From: a virus
Taxonomy: Duplodnaviria; Caudoviricetes
Virus record (IMG/VR): IMGVR_UViG_3300011429_000087
Location: 1 to 64,000 of that record
Reading direction: 5' to 3' (one strand)
DNA: 64,000 nt
This document shows positions 1 to 12,015 of the stretch, one piece after another. The notes beneath the pieces were generated by a model that was given only the letters and a program-made list of their open reading frames with translations, was not told where the DNA came from and made no database searches. Both the position numbers and the translations under genes were made by a program. Each line of letters begins with the position of its first letter. Positions within the stretch are counted from its first letter, which is position 1.

Positions 1-53
1 CTTGCCCCCCATCCGATCCAAGGTACATTGAGGGAGCAACCAAGGGGAACGCC

Positions 54-299
54 ATGAAAAGCATCACGCGAAGCGGAGACGATCGACGGACGGAGACGCG
101 GGGAACGGATCGGCGAAACGCTCACCTCGATATCCGTACCGTTTGCAAGCTTATGGGGGACAATACCGAGGAAATTCTCGCACTCCTGAATTTCCCCCCG
201 ATGATGCTCGCGGTCGATGCCGACCGGGCCCGGGCCCGTGCGGCGGACCTAGCCGACCGGAATTCCTTCCTAGTGCGTCTTCTTCCCTACGCCAACTAA
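54..299 (+). CDS. Hypothetical small (putative early) protein
   Basis: 81-aa ORF with AAGGGG RBS; GC-rich block. Confidence 0.55.
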   Translation: MKSITRSGDDRRTETRGTDRRNAHLDIRTVCKLMGDNTEEILALLNFPPMMLAVDADRARARAADLADRNSFLVRLLPYAN

Positions 300-310
300 G
301 GGGAAACCCA

Positions 311-478
311 ATGGTGCCGATGCGTCGCTACAGAGTCTACGTCGTCCCCTCCGGGGGGACTCTCCGGGAATGGCACTATATCGACGCCCCCAATAAGACC
401 CTAGCGGTCTTAGCCTTTTGGGACACGGTAGGGTGGCTACCGATCCTCAAGGTAACGGGGGGCACGGCCCTAATCTAG
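311..478 (+). CDS. Hypothetical 55-aa protein (MVPMRRYRVYVV...)
   Basis: AAGGGG RBS before ATG311, right after the upstream stop; followed by a terminator. Confidence 0.55.
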   Translation: MVPMRRYRVYVVPSGGTLREWHYIDAPNKTLAVLAFWDTVGWLPILKVTGGTALI

Positions 479-504
479 CGTAGGCTAGTTCCGTAGCAAC
501 TAAG

Positions 505-545
505 TCGCCTCGGGGAATTGTCCCCGGAGCGATTTTTTATTTTTT
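505..545 (+). terminator. Intrinsic terminator
   Basis: TCGC..CGGGGA-attg-TCCCCG..GCGA hairpin followed by T runs. Confidence 0.7.
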
Positions 546-556
546 GGTTGCCGCTC

Positions 557-584
557 TAAAGTATCTAAGGTATCTAGTCGATAG
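557..584 (+). promoter_or_regulatory. sigma28/FliA-like promoter
   Basis: TAAA-N16-GTCGATAG versus consensus TAAA-N15-GCCGATAA, just upstream of RBS and ORF 626. Confidence 0.45.
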
Positions 585-625
585 TAAGGGTGCAAACAAG
601 CAACCCCGAACAAAGGAAGTAAGCC

Positions 626-751
626 ATGCGTACCCGAATCCTCCTCGCTCTCCTCGCTCTCTCGGTCGTCGTCGCACTCGCCTCGTGCATCGCTCGCGTT
701 GCGGCCGAAACCGCGGCAAGCATCCCGACCGTCGCGACCATCGGCCGCTAA
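626..751 (+). CDS. 41-aa hydrophobic peptide / possible lipopeptide (MRTRILLALLALSVVVALASC...IGR)
   Basis: Read manually; AAGGAAG RBS; signal-like hydrophobic stretch ending in lipobox-like LASC. Confidence 0.6.
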   Translation: MRTRILLALLALSVVVALASCIARVAAETAASIPTVATIGR

Positions 752-800
752 ACCGAGAACTAGCTTCCCTTAAAAAATCCTTTTTCTAGGTTTCAGGGTT

Positions 801-827
801 TCAGTATCGGGCCCCCGGGGACGATAA
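801..827 (+). promoter_or_regulatory. sigma28/FliA-like promoter
   Basis: TCAG-N15-GACGATAA upstream of ORF 866; downstream leader resembles that of the 557 unit. Confidence 0.4.
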
Positions 828-865
828 GTATGGTGCAAGACGGAGTCAACCAAAGGAACCTAGCC

Positions 866-970
866 ATGATGAACCGCACTAAGCTTCTCTCCCTCCTCCT
901 CGCCGCGACCATGATCTTCGCTCTCGGCACCATGATCCTCGCCGCAGCCGTCCCGATGATGGGACGCTAA
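866..970 (+). CDS. 34-aa hydrophobic membrane peptide (MMNRTKLLSLLLAATMIFALG...MMGR)
   Basis: Read manually; AAGGAA RBS; similar architecture to ORF 626. Confidence 0.6.
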   Translation: MMNRTKLLSLLLAATMIFALGTMILAAAVPMMGR

Positions 971-974
971 GACC

Positions 975-1178
975 ATGCGACACGACGAAGTCAAAGAAGG
1001 GGCGGAACTAGAAGTTTCCCTAGGTTTCGACCATGCCGACCGGGAGCGATGGGAACGGGGGACGGTACTTAAGGTCTACGGAGACGGATTGATTCTCGTT
1101 TCCCTACCCCTCGGGTTTTTCGACATGGTTCCCCAAACGCTCGCTACTCGGGCGATGTTTATGCGGCCAATTCGGTAA
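975..1178 (+). CDS. Hypothetical protein, small beta-barrel-like
   Basis: 67-aa ORF coupled to the previous stop; WERGTVLKVYGDG pattern. Confidence 0.6.
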   Translation: MRHDEVKEGAELEVSLGFDHADRERWERGTVLKVYGDGLILVSLPLGFFDMVPQTLATRAMFMRPIR

Positions 1179-1505
1179 CGTGCCATAGGGGGCCCGGATT
1201 CTTCCGGGCCCTTCTTTTTTCCTATATCTATTTATAGGAATTTTTTTCTTTTCACGTACATATGGCATTTGCTTATATCGCACACATAGCATATATCATA
1301 CCATAATAGGTACATAGGAATAGGTTGCCTATGTTAAGCAACTATCATGCCAATGCGAATAAAATAAAAATGAAATAGAATTAATTTCTTATTTGTAAAA
1401 TATACAATTTCAAATATCATACCAAATGAAAAATAAATAATGAGAAAAATATACACATGTCTGCATCGTTCGGTTTTAGCACAATCCCGAGCAAATCGCG
1501 TGCCA
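1170..1505 (-). promoter_or_regulatory. Array of sigma54 (RpoN) -24/-12 boxes
   Basis: Minus strand: TGGCACGCGATTTGCT (1490-1505), TGGCATGATAGTTGCT (1337-1352), TGGTATGATATATGCT (1288-1303), plus degenerate copies at 1409-1424 and 1170-1185. Confidence 0.65.
1190..1220 (+). terminator. Intrinsic terminator
   Basis: GGGCCCGGA-ttct-TCCGGGCCC followed by TTCTTTTTT. Confidence 0.85.
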
Positions 1506-1717
1506 TTGTAAAAGTTACACGGGGCAGGGGGTTGTTTCGTTCCCGTTCGGAAACCGAACAGTACCCCGGGGGGCAGGGGATTCATAAACACACGGGGGCC
1601 TAAAATCCAAAACAATAGTGCGGCATCCGAACATTTCCCCTGATAGTTTATTTAGCTTTCAAGCCCACTCCAGGTGGGGGGTTTCTTTTAGCTTTTCTAG
1701 AAAAAGGATGTTAATTT

Positions 1718-3433
1718 ATGTCACTATTAGTCTCACTAGCCCTATCAGCCTTTGCAGCATTTGCTCCAGTCCCGGACGTTAAAGCAGTTATAACTCAACC
1801 CAACGATACTTTAAATATAGCGGGCGTGACAGTCACTCGTCTCAGCGGCTTCGATTCTACCGCAAACGGCGGAGACACGGAGATAATTAAATGGCTTTGG
1901 GACTGGGGTGATGGCGGATTCTCTATGGGGCCAGAAGTTTATCACACCTTTAGAACTGTCGGTAAACATACAGTAATATTAACTGTTTTTGGGGATTCCC
2001 TTTCCAGTAAATCTTCTATTTCTATTGATGTAGATGTGAAAGGATTTGATGGCAAAATCTACTTTGTGAGTGCTAGTACCGGGAACGATACTTTCCCCGG
2101 GACCGCCGCACTCCCCTTTAAGTCAATTCAAAAGGCGTTGGATGTATCGGCGGCGGGCCGCCAGGGCCGTCCAGACGCCCTAGCATTTAAATCTGGAGAT
2201 ACCTGGGATTGGGATGGCGACCTATTTCCAAATCGCCCTTCTGTGTGGATTAATTATGGGGCCGGTGCTCTGCCCATTATAAACATGGGAGATGGTCATT
2301 CGGTCTATCTTTTGAATGGCTTCCATTCTGAGCCCGCAAATACATATGGCTATTCCGTCTATTTGAATAATATTTGGTTTAAGTGGCCCACAAGTAATTT
2401 CGCCAATATGCTAAATCTTGGTACTTGGGGTTCGCAGGCTGTAGGTTGTAGAACAACTGGGGGCGGTATGTCCGCTGCTGGTGGGCCCGAAAAAATCACT
2501 CTTAAAAAGTGCGATATCAATGGCGTGGACTATACAGGATTTTTTTCTAGTAGTAGCTGGTGTACAGTTGTCTCATGCAATATACACGGAAATGGAGCGA
2601 ACGCCACATTTCATCATGAAATCTATATGAGCATGAATCATAATGTTTTGGTTAAAGATACGACATTAGATGGTCGCGGAGCTAAGGGAGCCAATTATGC
2701 TCTAACTTTTTCGGGTACTCGAAAGTTTTATGTGGCTGATTGCGACATCATGCACACAAATTATGGCCTAAATTTAGGCACCAATGGTGACGACGACCAG
2801 CGTGAAGGCCAGGACGGAATCGTAGAACGCTGTGCGATTCATGATATGGGCGAATTTAATCAGTGTGGGGCATTCTGGTTTACTAGAATGGCACGTTGCG
2901 TCATTAAGAATTGCCTAATATTTAATTGCGATAAGTATATGGGGCAAGCAGTAATTATTTTTAGCGATCGCAAAGCCACCGATAATACTCATGATGTGAG
3001 AATAATGAATAATACTTTTTATAGCAATGATGCTCAGGGTATGCAAGTGGGGTCTTGGGTGAAAAACATCAACTTCGTTAACAACATTGTGTATAGGGAT
3101 AACGATCAGTTATTCGTGACAATGGATAGTGCGACCCTGCCAGAACTTCACTTCGACTATAATAACTATTTCAATACGACCTTTGGCCCCGATGACTCCC
3201 GTGCGTTCTACGTCTCTGGTAAAAAATCATTTGAGGACTGGAAAAAGCTACAAGACGCCCATTCTGTTTGGGGTGATCCATCATTTATTGATCCGGCAAA
3301 TCGTAACTTCCATTTAGCCGCTGACAGTGCGGCGATTAACGCCGGGATCACGATCCCGAGCGTGTGGGAAGACTTTGCCAGGGCGGATAGACTACAGGGC
3401 GGGGCTTATGAAGCGGGGGCGTTTATATATTAA
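1718..3433 (+). CDS. Secreted PKD-domain / right-handed beta-helix (pectin-lyase-fold) protein
   Basis: N-terminal signal peptide; PKD motif WDWGDG..HTF..G.HTVILTV; YFVS..GND..PGT..LPFKSIQKA; NNT/NNI repeats; C-terminal GDP.F.D....FHL...S.AINAG. Confidence 0.8.
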   Translation: MSLLVSLALSAFAAFAPVPDVKAVITQPNDTLNIAGVTVTRLSGFDSTANGGDTEIIKWLWDWGDGGFSMGPEVYHTFRTVGKHTVILTVFGDSLSSKSSISIDVDVKGFDGKIYFVSASTGNDTFPGTAALPFKSIQKALDVSAAGRQGRPDALAFKSGDTWDWDGDLFPNRPSVWINYGAGALPIINMGDGHSVYLLNGFHSEPANTYGYSVYLNNIWFKWPTSNFANMLNLGTWGSQAVGCRTTGGGMSAAGGPEKITLKKCDINGVDYTGFFSSSSWCTVVSCNIHGNGANATFHHEIYMSMNHNVLVKDTTLDGRGAKGANYALTFSGTRKFYVADCDIMHTNYGLNLGTNGDDDQREGQDGIVERCAIHDMGEFNQCGAFWFTRMARCVIKNCLIFNCDKYMGQAVIIFSDRKATDNTHDVRIMNNTFYSNDAQGMQVGSWVKNINFVNNIVYRDNDQLFVTMDSATLPELHFDYNNYFNTTFGPDDSRAFYVSGKKSFEDWKKLQDAHSVWGDPSFIDPANRNFHLAADSAAINAGITIPSVWEDFARADRLQGGAYEAGAFIY

Positions 3434-3648
3434 ACTAGTTCACTGACCGGCACGTACATACGCTCGCCAGCCCCATAAACCAGAATACTGGCTACGCCGT
3501 CCGTCTTATTTAAAAGACGACCAGTTAATATAAGGCGATCTTCTTCATAGATGGTGAATCTTCCTTTTGTGGTAAGATACACCTCTGGATACTCTTCTGA
3601 AAAATCTCCGGAGGTAAGGCACGATTTACTGTTGTCTCGGTGGTCCAT
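3430..3648 (-). CDS. Hypothetical protein
   Basis: 72-aa ORF with GGAG RBS, last gene of the minus-strand block. Confidence 0.55.
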   Translation of the reverse strand: MDHRDNSKSCLTSGDFSEEYPEVYLTTKGRFTIYEEDRLILTGRLLNKTDGVASILVYGAGERMYVPVSELV

Positions 3649-3743
3649 TAATATAACTCCTATAAAATTCGGCTTCTCTTAGTCTCGCCAACTCAAAAGC
3701 AATCGCCGCACGTTTTAATGCTTCGCGGTATTGTTGATCCATT

Positions 3744-4136
3744 TTAGTTCTCAATCTGAGAGTGCCATAAGAATATGTGGGAACCGTCCCTTAGGCTTAT
3801 TGTATACTGTTTTATTGCCTTATTATCTTTAACCACTGCTCCCACTAAATCGTAACCTCTTAGTTTATCAAACGTGTAGCCGCCATCTTTTAATATAAAG
3901 ACCGTTTTTCCTACATTGCTATAAACTGGTTCCGGGGCCGTGTCTGTAGGCTCGTTTCTTGCCTTAGTCAAAACTAATAGGACTTCCGCCTGTTCTCTAG
4001 AAATTTGGACCAGTGTGAACAAATCCTGCATCATATCTTTAAGTCGTGGATCTGATTCATCGCTCGCCTTTAGAATTAAGGCTCCCATCTTCGTAATCTG
4101 TAATTGAATTAAATCATTTAGTTCCATTTTTACCAT
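3744..4136 (-). CDS. Hypothetical protein
   Basis: 130-aa ORF with AGGAG RBS. Confidence 0.7.
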   Translation of the reverse strand: MVKMELNDLIQLQITKMGALILKASDESDPRLKDMMQDLFTLVQISREQAEVLLVLTKARNEPTDTAPEPVYSNVGKTVFILKDGGYTFDKLRGYDLVGAVVKDNKAIKQYTISLRDGSHIFLWHSQIEN

Positions 4137-4774: not shown

Positions 4775-5044
4775 CTATGCCTCACTGGTATCAAAGGTTA
4801 CGTTCGTATTCTTAATAGTATTCCTTCTATACAGAGCACGTTTGGCGTCTTTTAAATTCTTGTAGCCAGCTATCACTACTTTTAGAGGTGTAGCCTCAAT
4901 GCAGGCTTCAGGGTCACCCGGAAAATAAATTACTTCGTAGTTGGCAACTATCTGCCAACGAGACTTTTCATACTTCCTACAACGAGGCTTAATTTCCTGA
5001 AAGGAATATTCCTTAAAACGAAATTTACATTTTATAGTTATCAT
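4775..5044 (-). CDS. Hypothetical protein
   Basis: 89-aa ORF, ATGA overlap with the ATPase gene. Confidence 0.6.
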   Translation of the reverse strand: MITIKCKFRFKEYSFQEIKPRCRKYEKSRWQIVANYEVIYFPGDPEACIEATPLKVVIAGYKNLKDAKRALYRRNTIKNTNVTFDTSEA

Positions 5045-6123
5045 CTTCCAAATCCTGTCTTTTGATTCATTCCGAGATCGGCGATCTTTGTGGCAATACT
5101 ATACTTCGTATCACCAACCTTTACATATTTTCGCTCAGTATTATGACTAGAGAATAGGTGATACTCAGCAACTAAGGCCGCCTGTGTAACATTTTTGGAA
5201 TTGCCAAAAATCTCATCAAACCTAGAAATATCCAAATTAAACACATTGGCCCAAATCTGTCTAGCCTGTTCTATAGACAACGGAGGCAGAGTCAAGAAGT
5301 CGAAGCACCGACCGGGACGAATAATCGCTTCGTCAATTTCACTCATGGATTGGTTGGTCGTAATAACGACTTTTGTGTTGCGTCTAATAACGCCATCCGA
5401 ATACGATAATAAGTTATTGACAAAATTAGCATCCTTGTTTCTAGCCCTCGGAACAAGTGCGTCGTCTAGATCGTCAAAGATAATTAAGTCATAGTTACCA
5501 TCGGTCAGTTCATACCAAAGTTCGCTATCTTCTATTGCCTTTTTATCTTTGATATAGGCAACCTTCCTATAGTAGTATCCATTTAAGAGATATCGAAGGA
5601 ACGTGGTTTTACCAACGCCCGGCTCTCCGTGCAGAATTAAGATACGTTCGGGAGCCTTATTAAATGCCTCTCTCAGTAATGAAATATCAATCGAAGGATA
5701 AAGTTCGGGATAAATCGGATCTTTGTCGTCGTTAGTAGCGACCTGATCATGCTGCAACCCGCCACTAGCAATATAGAAGTATGAAAGATTAGTTTCGGAC
5801 TCGACTAGAAACGGTCTACAAAACTTATATAAGCTTGATAATTTACTATTTAGCTTGGCAAATAATGTAACGTGCGTATCACTCATCGAAACGGCAATCG
5901 TCTTGTCTTTTAGTAACGACCAAGCATCGCGAGAAAATTCATAATGCTTCATTTTGGGATTTGCACCCAGAATGGCCGTAATAAGTTCCGACCGTTTGTC
6001 AGACTTGTATCTGAGAGAAGATAGACAGTGTACATAACCCTCAGAAATTAACGTCATAAAGCGGAGGTTCTGACTCCCATATGACATGTTCACGTCGCCA
6101 TTGTTAATAGTAAAGTTAAGCAT
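5041..6123 (-). CDS. AAA+ ATPase
   Basis: Walker A GEPGVGKT, Walker B IIFDDLD, ITTN sensor, IIRPGRCFD arginine finger. Confidence 0.9.
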   Translation of the reverse strand: MLNFTINNGDVNMSYGSQNLRFMTLISEGYVHCLSSLRYKSDKRSELITAILGANPKMKHYEFSRDAWSLLKDKTIAVSMSDTHVTLFAKLNSKLSSLYKFCRPFLVESETNLSYFYIASGGLQHDQVATNDDKDPIYPELYPSIDISLLREAFNKAPERILILHGEPGVGKTTFLRYLLNGYYYRKVAYIKDKKAIEDSELWYELTDGNYDLIIFDDLDDALVPRARNKDANFVNNLLSYSDGVIRRNTKVVITTNQSMSEIDEAIIRPGRCFDFLTLPPLSIEQARQIWANVFNLDISRFDEIFGNSKNVTQAALVAEYHLFSSHNTERKYVKVGDTKYSIATKIADLGMNQKTGFGR

Positions 6124-11707: not shown

Positions 11708-12015
11708 TTAAAGAAACTAAGAATAATCGACTAGGTATTACTAGTAGTACAAATGGAGGTCATAATATTGTCAATGATCTTACTACTGGTAAAGTCGATG
11801 TAAAGGTGCCAGCAGAAAAAGTGGAGGTGCCGCTTGGGTTAGCCAAGGCGAGTCCAATTTTTAAGAAGGTCGAGCCAAAGACTAAGGCTGATAAGTTAGA
11901 CGAGGTTAAGGCTCTTAAGGAAAATGAAGTTAAAACAGAGGGTAACCTTTCGGTAACACCCGAAACTAGCCACGTTACTCCCGCAACAGGTTATATAACG
12001 CCGCCCACAACGTAA
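11704..12015 (+). CDS. Hypothetical protein
   Basis: AGGAG RBS, ATGA overlap. Confidence 0.65.
   Translation: MIKETKNNRLGITSSTNGGHNIVNDLTTGKVDVKVPAEKVEVPLGLAKASPIFKKVEPKTKADKLDEVKALKENEVKTEGNLSVTPETSHVTPATGYITPPTT

What the first reader, a model, noticed from the sequence alone, without database searches (positions are those of the whole stretch)
1170..1505. Same-strand array of sigma54 boxes in a non-coding AT-rich spacer with no gene to drive
Three good and two degenerate matches to TGGCACG-N4-TTGCW lie within about 340 nt, all on the minus strand and pointing into the sense-strand small-gene block. One is a perfect consensus. Known: sigma54 holoenzyme forms stable closed complexes without an activator. 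Inference: the array may be an RpoN/RNAP sponge, a roadblock or antisense shut-off of the first-expressed genes, a sensor of host nitrogen or motility state, or a protein-bound landmark for packaging or stepwise DNA entry.
Basis: partly seen in the sequence, partly recalled or inferred. Interest (0 to 1): 0.7.

Follow-up and report, generated by a model that had tools for sequence, protein, structure and literature searches.

The report
Backward-facing sigma-54 sites in phage spacer
A gene-free, AT-rich gap in an uncultured 165-kb phage holds two near-perfect and two weak docking sites for the bacterial sigma-54 RNA polymerase, all pointing backwards into the last early-gene cassette. Two more perfect sites sit in front of that cassette, so the phage probably ties this cassette to a host stress-type transcription route, though nothing has been tested.

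Summary
On a weight matrix built from ChIP-supported Salmonella sites, the spacer has two strong sigma-54 sites on the minus strand: 1335-1352 (20.7 bits) and 1488-1505 (19.3 bits, perfect consensus). It also has two weak ones, 1286-1303 (12.1) and 1407-1424 (10.0, no -12 GC). The fifth, 1168-1185, is only a -24 half (0.9 bits).

The array is not isolated. The window is the start of a probably circular 164,551-bp phage genome. The genome's four best sites all lie within 2.6 kb across the junction. The other two (163508 and 164157, plus strand) are intergenic and co-oriented with genes, and 164157 has three abutting enhancer-like palindromes just upstream. Sigma-54 sites therefore bracket the cassette 164317-1178 convergently.

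The phage encodes neither sigma-54 nor an activator, and the host is unknown. My best reading (0.42) is activator-dependent leftward promoters. They would give antisense, convergent transcription against the cassette and against a facing sigma-70 promoter of the next gene. Passive docking or promoter occlusion is the main rival.

In a relative known only from protein read-through, one strong site is kept and the other is flipped. This scan has noted sigma-54 sites at early-cassette boundaries in other uncultured phages, and I found no paper describing them.

The parts
3..1178 (+). GC-rich last early cassette, window part. It holds the C-terminal 98 aa of a 177-aa ORF that starts at genome 164317, then ORFs 311-478, 626-751, about 866-970 and 975-1178. 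This is the block the minus-strand sites point into.
   Evidence: ORF lists. The in-frame join across the contig ends gives one 177-aa ORF with a single stop. GC is 55-60% against a genome mean of 42%. No Pfam or PHROG hits.
1168..1185 (-). It has only a -24 half (TGGCACG) and no -12 element, so it is not a sigma-54 site.
   Evidence: Weight-matrix score 0.9 bits; sequence read.
1188..1221 (+). Intrinsic terminator (11-bp stem, T run) that closes the early cassette. On the minus strand it has no U tract.
   Evidence: Terminator scan; sequence read.
1286..1303 (-). Box 1, a weak sigma-54-type site (TGGTATGATATATGCTAT). GG and GC are at the right spacing. Predicted start is near 1277, leftward.
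   Evidence: 12.1 bits. It is a member of the 16-nt repeat family D1. A TGGTATG-type site is ChIP-bound in E. coli (site OA06, PMC4591121).
1335..1352 (-). Box 2, a strong sigma-54-type site (TGGCATGATAGTTGCTTA). Predicted start is near 1326, leftward.
   Evidence: 20.7 bits, second best in the whole genome. Its GGCAT and GC letters at the -24/-12 spacing are kept in a relative's read-through gene calls P0001 and P0011.
1393..1420 (+). Sigma-70-like promoter TTGTAA-16-TATCAT (start near 1427) for the leader and the 571-aa gene. It overlaps box 3 and faces box 4.
   Evidence: Promoter scan, 9 of 12 matches. The 16-nt spacer is the spacing of this phage's early promoters.
1407..1424 (-). Box 3, a degenerate site (TGGTATGATATTTGAAAT) that lacks the -12 GC. 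It overlaps the -10 of the plus-strand promoter.
   Evidence: 10.0 bits; repeat family D1.
1488..1505 (-). Box 4, a perfect-consensus sigma-54-type site (TGGCACGCGATTTGCTCG). Predicted start is near 1479, leftward, 52 nt from and facing the plus-strand start.
   Evidence: 0 mismatches; 19.3 bits. In the relative it lies on the other strand, on the other side of the adjacent palindrome.
1507..1519 (.). Palindrome TGTAA-AAG-TTACA abutting box 4, at -28 to -40 of that site. It is the pivot about which the box is mirrored in the relative.
   Evidence: Inverted-repeat list. Back-translation alignment: 80.4 with 1488-1519 inverted against 65.4 as is. tblastn match CKSYNGTRCAR versus the reverse strand.
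1427..1717 (+). Non-coding leader of the next gene. It holds the palindrome GTTCGGAAACCGAAC (1545-1559), the repeats GGGGCAGGGGRTT (1521 and 1570), and a terminator-like hairpin (1664-1690) just before the ribosome-binding site.
   Evidence: No Rfam family. Folding energy is no better than shuffles on either strand.
1718..3433 (+). 571-aa secreted PKD plus right-handed beta-helix protein, the gene to the right of the spacer.
   Evidence: Pfam PF13229, PF18911 and PF00801; homologues at 89%, 73% and 43% identity.

Best explanation
The boxes are docking sites for the host's sigma-54 (RpoN) RNA polymerase, and they belong to a small sigma-54 control unit that brackets the phage's last early cassette.

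Two perfect plus-strand sites lie upstream of the cassette, at genome 163508 and 164157. The second has three abutting palindromes (GTNACC-N4-GGTNAC) placed like an activator enhancer. Downstream, just after the cassette's terminator, the four minus-strand boxes point back into the cassette.

I infer that the two strong boxes (1335-1352 and 1488-1505) are activator-dependent leftward promoters. When a host enhancer-binding ATPase fires them, they would make non-coding transcripts that:
- run through the spacer and past the one-way terminator;
- are antisense to the cassette;
- collide with the facing sigma-70 promoter (start near 1427) that serves the 571-aa gene.

Without the activator they would hold polymerase as closed complexes. 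The weak box 3 would sit on that sigma-70 promoter.

Status of each step:
- Shown: the motif quality, the clustering, the strand bias and the geometry.
- Inferred: binding by sigma-54, firing, and the antisense effect.
For: Motif quality and clustering:
- The four best weight-matrix sites in 164.5 kb are 163508+ (21.0 bits), 1335- (20.7), 164157+ (20.4) and 1488- (19.3). All are intergenic and lie within 2.6 kb across the junction.
- Only three perfect TGGCACG-N4-TTGCW matches exist in the genome, and these are three of the four.
- In local shuffles of the 4.3-kb arc, perfect matches were 3 observed against 0, and matches with at most 1 mismatch were 6 against 0.05.
- Genome-wide, sites of 18 bits or more were 4 observed against 0.19 expected. 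The spacer result was 0 of 5000 shuffles with four same-strand sites.
- Alignment of eight sites shows that conservation is confined to the -24/-12 core, while the N4 spacer and the flanks vary.

Evidence that the phage uses sigma-54 transcription:
- The plus-strand sites are co-oriented with genes.
- Three of the genome's four perfect GTNACC-N4-GGTNAC palindromes abut one another 27-75 nt upstream of site 164157. Two one-mismatch copies follow site 163508.

Directionality and geometry:
- The same-strand bias matters for a directional function, not for titration.
- Box 2's critical letters are kept in a relative.
- The geometry of box 3, box 4 and the sigma-70 promoter comes.
- There is no minus-strand terminator in 1-1250, so leftward transcripts would cross the cassette.

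Published support:
- Bacteria have ChIP-bound intergenic antisense sigma-54 sites.
- Sigma-54 represses where its site overlaps another promoter (PMC4591121).
Against: - No enhancer-like palindrome lies in or next to the spacer, and there is no IHF-type site.
- There is no leftward gene, ribosome-binding site or defined RNA end.
- Boxes 1 and 3 are weak, and box 3 lacks the near-invariant -12 GC.
- In the 89%-identity relative, box 4 appears on the plus strand facing the 571-aa gene. Its leftward orientation is therefore not conserved.
- A more distant relative (G001) has neither the spacer nor such sites at the equivalent place.
- The phage encodes no sigma-54 and no true activator.
- The host, and so the presence of rpoN, is unknown.
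- Single high-scoring sites can arise by chance inside genes. One example is a 19.5-bit site in relative G002 whose G0 counterpart reads TAG.
Confidence: 0.42

Rival explanations
1. Passive docking sites. Sigma-54 holoenzyme binds the boxes as inert closed complexes and never fires leftward. The effect would be local promoter occlusion of the plus-strand sigma-70 promoter, insulation of the cassette boundary, or, summed over replicating genomes, withdrawal of sigma-54 polymerase from host stress genes.
For: - Sigma-54 holoenzyme forms stable closed complexes without an activator, and it represses when its site overlaps another promoter (PMC4591121).
- Box 3 lies on the -10 and -35 of the plus-strand promoter.
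- No enhancer lies near the array.
- There is nothing to express leftward.
Against: - Only two strong sites are in the array, and about four to eight in the genome.
- The strict same-strand orientation is unexplained by titration.
- The overlapping box 3 is the weakest site.
- Roadblock repression by bound RNAP:sigma54 was not seen in E. coli (PMC4591121).
- Other sites in the same phage look like working promoters with an enhancer.
Confidence: 0.25
2. Evolutionary leftovers. Sigma-54 promoter modules turn over and flip in this region, for example by template switching at the TGTAA-N3-TTACA palindrome. The present minus-strand copies in this phage would then be largely neutral remnants of promoters that once served, or in relatives still serve, the 571-aa gene.
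For: - In the relative, the box next to the palindrome is on the plus strand, upstream of the 571-aa gene.
- Boxes 1 and 3 are decayed copies that share a 10-mer (TATCATRCCA) beyond the sigma-54 constraints. It occurs 5 times in the genome, 3 of them here, against 0.9 expected.
- G001 lacks the whole spacer.
Against: - Two sites remain at 19-21 bits, as good as the best validated bacterial promoters. Neutral decay in 75% AT DNA would erase them quickly.
- Box 2's orientation and key letters are shared with the relative.
Confidence: 0.17
3. Not sigma-54 at all. The repeats would be sites for a phage or other host DNA-binding protein, plus-strand promoter -10 elements (TATCAT), or origin-type iterons in an AT-rich unwinding region.
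For: - Boxes 1-3 share TATCATRCCA, including the spacer letters.
- TATCAT serves as the -10 of a predicted plus-strand promoter.
- The spacer is among the most AT-rich stretches of the genome.
Against: - The match is to an a-priori consensus over 12 positions, three times perfect in one genome, and the variation falls in the N4 spacer as expected for sigma-54.
- Only one of the three TATCAT copies has a usable -35.
- GC skew follows gene direction and gives no origin signal here.
- No other known factor reads TGGCACG-N4-TTGCT. This last point rests on established knowledge and was not tested here.
Confidence: 0.12

Closest known systems
Enhancer-dependent sigma-54 (RpoN) -24/-12 promoters of bacteria, such as glnAp2, pspA and the divergent hycA/hypA and zraP/zraSR pairs
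   Same: - The core sequence is the same, TGGCAYG-N4-TTGCW with GG and GC ten bases apart.
- Scores are equal to ChIP-validated Salmonella promoters.
- The sister site at genome 164157 has three tandem palindromes upstream, like an activator enhancer.
   Different: - The sites lie in a phage that encodes neither sigma-54 nor an activator.
- The array has no enhancer of its own and no downstream gene.
- Four sites sit in tandem, pointing into the 3' end of a convergent cassette.
Intergenic-antisense and intragenic sigma-54 binding sites of E. coli and Salmonella (Bonocora et al. 2015, PMC4591121; Samuels et al. 2013, PMC3844500)
   Same: - These are sigma-54 sites that do not head an adjacent gene.
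- Some are oriented against neighbours.
- They are mostly silent closed complexes, proposed to give antisense RNAs or long 5' UTRs or to compete with other promoters.
   Different: - The bacterial sites are scattered and mostly weaker.
- Here two top-scoring sites and two weak ones are packed into 220 nt of a phage spacer.
- They are paired with co-oriented sites on the other side of the cassette.
Antisense and face-to-face promoter control at the ends of phage early units: lambda OOP RNA against cII, P22 sar against ant, and coliphage 186 pR/pL convergent promoters (recalled from the literature, not checked here)
   Same: - A promoter placed just beyond the 3' end of an early unit fires back into it.
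- A promoter pair faces each other about 50-60 bp apart, here starts near 1427 and 1479.
   Different: - Those use constitutive sigma-70 promoters and give short, terminated RNAs.
- Here the promoters would be sigma-54 type and so gated by a host ATPase activator, and no terminator defines the RNA.
Sigma-54-type sites at early-cassette boundaries of other uncultured phages, noted by this scan (e1-5827921, e1-5800983, e1-5684897; unpublished AI notes)
   Same: - Near-consensus sigma-54 sites lie between early gene cassettes, some antisense or convergent.
- Those phages also have no rpoN or activator gene.
   Different: - Those arrays are larger (9-13 sites) and often head-to-head dyads.
- Here the cluster is small and the spacer sites are all on one strand.
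- I did not re-examine those genomes.

Membership tests
Sigma-54 (RpoN)-dependent -24/-12 promoter | A GG doublet and a GC doublet exactly ten bases apart within TGGCAYG-N4-TTGCW | tested here: met
   Met for 1488-1505, 1335-1352 and 1286-1303. Not met for 1407-1424 (GA in place of GC) or for 1168-1185 (no -12 element).
Sigma-54 (RpoN)-dependent -24/-12 promoter | A score within the range of experimentally bound sites on a weight matrix, and above background | tested here: met
   The two strong sites score 20.7 and 19.3 bits on a matrix built from 29 ChIP-supported Salmonella sites. The weak ones score 12.1 and 10.0. Shuffles and 1.39 Mb of other phage DNA give essentially none of 16-18 bits or more.
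Sigma-54 (RpoN)-dependent -24/-12 promoter | An upstream enhancer (activator-binding repeats) within about 70-200 bp | tested here: not met
   No GTNACC-N4-GGTNAC copy, or any other element shared with the plus-strand sites, lies upstream of the array. The nearest enhancer-like triple is about 1.8 kb away at genome 164082-164130. Action at that distance is possible but untested.
Sigma-54 (RpoN)-dependent -24/-12 promoter | A gene or RNA downstream in the promoter's orientation | tested here: not met
   The minus strand has only short ORFs without a ribosome-binding site, and no terminator in 1-1250. Leftward transcripts could only be antisense or non-coding.
Sigma-54 (RpoN)-dependent -24/-12 promoter | The host provides sigma-54 and an enhancer-binding ATPase, and transcription depends on them | not testable with these tools
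   The host is unknown. The phage has no PF04552 hit, and its only PF00158 hit is a sub-threshold match in a dNMP kinase. Searching GTDB genomes for the site-plus-palindrome pattern gave about the chance number of hits.
Sigma-54 (RpoN)-dependent -24/-12 promoter | Conservation of the sites in related genomes | tested here: inconclusive
   No relative's DNA for this region could be fetched. Read-through gene calls of one relative show box 2's letters kept and box 4 flipped to the other strand. The distant relative G001 lacks the spacer.
DNA decoy / sponge for a host factor | Many high-affinity sites, with orientation irrelevant, in excess of what regulation needs | tested here: not met
   There are two strong sites in the array and four in the genome. 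All four boxes are on one strand.
Cis-antisense RNA control at the end of a phage early unit (lambda OOP type) | A promoter just beyond the 3' end of a gene, firing back into it, giving a defined short RNA | tested here: inconclusive
   The position and orientation fit, because the boxes start 75 nt after the terminator of ORF 975-1178. No minus-strand terminator or processing signal defines an RNA.

The most novel reading that the evidence does not exclude
The phage brackets one early cassette with convergent host sigma-54 promoters, sense ones with their own enhancer and an antisense array at the far end. A host enhancer-binding ATPase that senses stress or damage would then decide, during infection, between expressing and silencing the cassette, and would also affect the neighbouring secreted beta-helix gene. 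This would be an activator-gated sense/antisense toggle built wholly from borrowed host machinery.
Probability: 0.25. Interest if true: 0.75.

Novelty: new variant of a known kind. Interest (0 to 1): 0.55.

Why it matters
Sigma-54 transcription is silent until a signal-sensing ATPase switches it on. Phage gene programmes are textbook cases of sigma-70 promoters, phage sigma factors or phage polymerases.

A phage that carries top-quality sigma-54 sites but no sigma-54 or activator gene must be reading a host signal such as envelope stress, RNA damage or nitrogen state. Backward-facing sites add the possibility of conditional antisense control.

In the libraries I searched, I found no paper describing such phage arrays. 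This scan keeps meeting them in uncultured phages. If real, they are a widespread, unstudied layer of phage-host regulation that can be tested with simple reporter and binding assays.

Tried and rejected
Searches for relatives:
- blastn of 1-4000 against 50,697 phage records found no match.
- Scans of viral contigs with the 571-aa protein, the 67-aa ORF, the ATPase 5041-6123 and the cREC_REC protein either found nothing close or found 80 unrelated phages.
- The terminase found two relatives. G002 is collinear only with G0 10.2-123.4 kb, so it misses the region. G001 has no spacer and no sigma-54 sites there.
- The one metagenome scan, with an ATPase alignment, gave only hits of 39% identity or less.
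- The GTDB genome scan with a terminase alignment found nothing.
The contigs of the 89% and 73% homologues, including a 113.7-kb one, could therefore not be fetched.
- A viral scan for the palindrome-plus-box word found nothing.

Other negative results:
I used hand-tallied column counts instead.
- Rfam and the tRNA scan of the window found nothing.
- RNA folding of 1427-1700 on both strands gave z-scores near zero.

Ideas rejected:
- A replication origin. GC skew only tracks gene direction, and the spacer is not uniquely AT-rich.
- A longer repeat unit around the boxes. The alignment shows only the core is shared.
- A phage-encoded activator. The PF00158 hit is a dNMP kinase.
- Host identification through the enhancer-plus-promoter pattern. 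It gave 12 hits, about the chance number. Two are orthologous Opitutaceae loci.
- IHF-type sites. There are none.

Full report
**Setting.** The window is the first 64 kb of a one-contig, 164,551-bp virus record. It has a terminase, portal, major head protein and a 1,683-aa tape measure, and no close relative among deposited phages. The record is probably circularly closed. The ORF that runs off the right end (from 164317) joins the ORF that runs in at the left end (to 299), giving one 177-aa frame with a single stop. In a distant relative, the flanking genes lie the expected distance apart. A GC-rich (55-60%) block of small plus-strand genes runs from about 157.5 kb across the junction to 1.2 kb. 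The rest of the genome is 42% GC. This block carries many near-consensus sigma-70 promoters with 16-nt spacers. The finding lies just after its last terminator (1188-1221), in a 75% AT spacer. The spacer precedes a 571-aa secreted PKD/beta-helix gene at 1718-3433.

**The observation.** To grade them I built an 18-nt weight matrix from the column counts of 29 ChIP-supported intergenic Salmonella sites (Table 3 of PMC3844500). The scores were as follows:
- 1335-1352: 20.7 bits.
- 1488-1505: 19.3 bits (perfect consensus).
- 1286-1303: 12.1 bits.
- 1407-1424: 10.0 bits, with the -12 GC replaced by GA.
- 1168-1185: 0.9 bits, only a -24 half.

So the array has two strong sites and two weak ones. In 5000 dinucleotide shuffles of the spacer, 6 gave any site of 18 bits or more, and none gave four same-strand sites of 10 bits or more. 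1.39 Mb of unrelated phage DNA held no site of 16 bits or more. An alignment of the sites shows that only the -24/-12 core is shared. The N4 spacer and the flanks vary, as expected for sigma-54 sites. Boxes 1-3 also share the 10-mer TATCATRCCA, which suggests local duplication.

A whole-genome scan changes the picture. Only three perfect matches to TGGCACG-N4-TTGCW exist in 164.5 kb: 1490 (minus), 163508 (plus) and 164157 (plus). By weight matrix, the four best sites of the genome are these three plus box 2. All four are intergenic and lie within 2.6 kb across the junction. Local shuffles of this arc give 0 perfect matches and 0.05 one-mismatch matches, against 3 and 6 observed. The two plus-strand sites are co-oriented with the small genes. 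Site 163508 follows a terminator directly. Site 164157 lies 145 nt before the 177-aa ORF.

Three abutting 16-bp palindromes of the form GTNACC-N4-GGTNAC lie 27-75 nt upstream of 164157, at 164082-164130. They are three of only four perfect copies in the genome. Two one-mismatch copies follow site 163508. The triple is centred between 164157 and a weak opposite-strand site at 164043-164060. This is the layout of divergent enhancer-dependent promoters.

An unrelated viral contig pair (L114 and L115) also combines two 21-23-bit sigma-54 sites with two palindromes of this type. The phage has no sigma-54 gene and no true activator. The only PF00158 signal is a sub-threshold match in a dNMP kinase. 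The simplest reading is that the phage uses the host's sigma-54 system. The cassette 164317-1178 is then bracketed by sense sites on its left and the backward-facing array on its right.

**Anatomy of the spacer.** Taking the GC as -13/-12, the predicted leftward starts are near 1479 (box 4), 1326 (box 2) and 1277 (box 1). The terminator at 1188-1221 has no U tract on the minus strand, and no minus-strand terminator exists in 1-1250. Leftward transcripts would therefore run antisense through the cassette. No leftward ORF with a ribosome-binding site exists.

On the plus strand, a sigma-70-like promoter TTGTAA-16-TATCAT (1393-1420) would start near 1427. It would read a 290-nt leader into the 571-aa gene. 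Box 3 overlaps this promoter, and box 4 faces it with starts 52 nt apart. The leader is non-coding: it has frame-breaking indels relative to a close relative. It shows no exceptional fold and matches no Rfam family.

**Relatives.** No relative's DNA for this region could be obtained:
- G002 (terminase 82% identical) starts at the equivalent of 10.2 kb.
- G001 (60% identical) has convergent terminators and no spacer, no 571-aa gene and no sigma-54 sites at the equivalent place.

However, a phage whose 571-aa homologue is 89% identical has gene calls (P0001 and P0011) that read through 345-363 nt of upstream DNA. Aligning their back-translation to the window gave two results:
- The calls start inside box 2. 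The fixed letters give GGCAT and GC at the -24/-12 spacing on the minus strand, while other nearby positions differ.
- The peptide CKSYNGTRCAR matches the reverse strand of 1488-1520. The alignment score rises from 65.4 to 80.4 when 1488-1519 is inverted. In that phage the box next to the TGTAA-N3-TTACA palindrome therefore sits on the plus strand, on the other side of the palindrome, facing the 571-aa gene.

So one strong minus-strand site appears conserved. The other is mirrored about a palindrome. This is indirect evidence from degenerate codons.

**Mechanism.** I rate sigma-54 docking as likely (about 0.8). The reasons are the a-priori consensus, three perfect copies, clustering in intergenic DNA and an enhancer-like element beside a sister site.

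For function, I favour activator-dependent leftward promoters that give antisense, convergent transcription (0.42). The strict strand bias points to a directional role. The same phage has sigma-54 sites that look like working promoters. The geometry matches known antisense and face-to-face phage control, although the lambda OOP and coliphage 186 pR/pL comparisons are recalled rather than checked.

Published E. coli work shows three relevant things (PMC4591121):
- Intergenic antisense sigma-54 sites are bound in vivo, including a TGGTATG-type site.
- Sigma-54 represses where its site overlaps another promoter.
- Bound complexes did not act as roadblocks.

That weakens the roadblock idea and supports occlusion at box 3 as a secondary effect.

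The evidence against my reading is that the array has no enhancer or IHF-type site, no defined RNA end, weak boxes 1 and 3, a flipped box in the relative, and an unknown host. The rivals are passive docking or occlusion (0.25), decaying flip-prone promoter modules (0.17), and a different binder or chance (0.12).

**Known and new.** The core element is the classical bacterial sigma-54 promoter. What differs is the carrier and the layout. The carrier is a phage lacking the factor and its activator. The layout is a tandem, backward-facing set at a cassette boundary, paired with enhancer-equipped sense sites. Three literature searches found no description of such phage arrays. Earlier notes of this scan report sigma-54 sites at early-cassette boundaries in other uncultured phages. 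I did not re-test those. They make this a further, smaller example of a recurring pattern rather than a one-off.

Noticed in passing
L016:14082-14130 (genome 164082-164130); also L016:13531-13575 and window 11942-11957: Three abutting palindromes GTNACC-N4-GGTNAC lie midway between a weak minus-strand and a perfect plus-strand sigma-54 site. Two one-mismatch copies follow the other perfect site. Only four perfect copies exist in 164.5 kb. This is probably the binding site of an unknown activator.
   Followed up: partly
L016:13508-13525 and L016:14157-14174 (genome 163508 and 164157): Two perfect-consensus plus-strand sigma-54 sites sit in intergenic DNA of the early block. Each is followed by a sigma-70 promoter and a small gene of unknown function.
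   Followed up: partly
L114:600-920 and L115:9620-9920: Unrelated viral contigs carry two tandem sigma-54 sites (23.4 and 21.5 bits, 126 nt apart) flanked by two palindromes of the same GTNACC-N4-GGTNAC type.
   Followed up: partly
L102:1079-1138 and L106:764-823: Two Opitutaceae MAGs keep, at an orthologous place, a sigma-54 site with one GTNACC-N4-GGTNAC palindrome 29 nt upstream. The total number of GTDB hits was at chance level, so no host call was made.
   Followed up: partly
window 1488-1519 versus proteins P0001 and P0011: In a close relative, the sigma-54 box next to the TGTAA-N3-TTACA palindrome appears mirrored to the other side and the other strand. A template switch at the palindrome, or loss of one half of an ancestral back-to-back pair, could explain this.
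   Followed up: partly
window 1427-1717: The 290-nt leader of the secreted PKD/beta-helix gene has a perfect palindrome GTTCGGAAACCGAAC, two GGGGCAGGGGRTT repeats and a terminator-like hairpin just before the ribosome-binding site. It may be an attenuator. It matches no Rfam family and has no folding signal.
   Followed up: partly
genome 157500-164551 plus window 1-1200: The early small-gene block is 55-60% GC in a 42% GC genome that carries its own tRNAs. Early genes may match a GC-rich host's codon usage while later genes rely on phage tRNAs.
   Followed up: no
L016:11876-12208: A cREC_REC (cyclic-phosphate-processing receiver, PF20274) protein lies just upstream of the sigma-54 cluster. In enterobacteria, the RNA-repair operon rtcBA is itself sigma-54 dependent (PMC9879122 abstract). 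A link between RNA damage sensing and these phage sites is conceivable but untested.
   Followed up: no
G002 83612-83629 (L014) versus genome 102666-102683: A 19.5-bit sigma-54-like site lies inside a conserved coding region of the relative, and its G0 counterpart reads TAG instead of TGG. This shows that single strong matches can arise by chance in genes.
   Followed up: no
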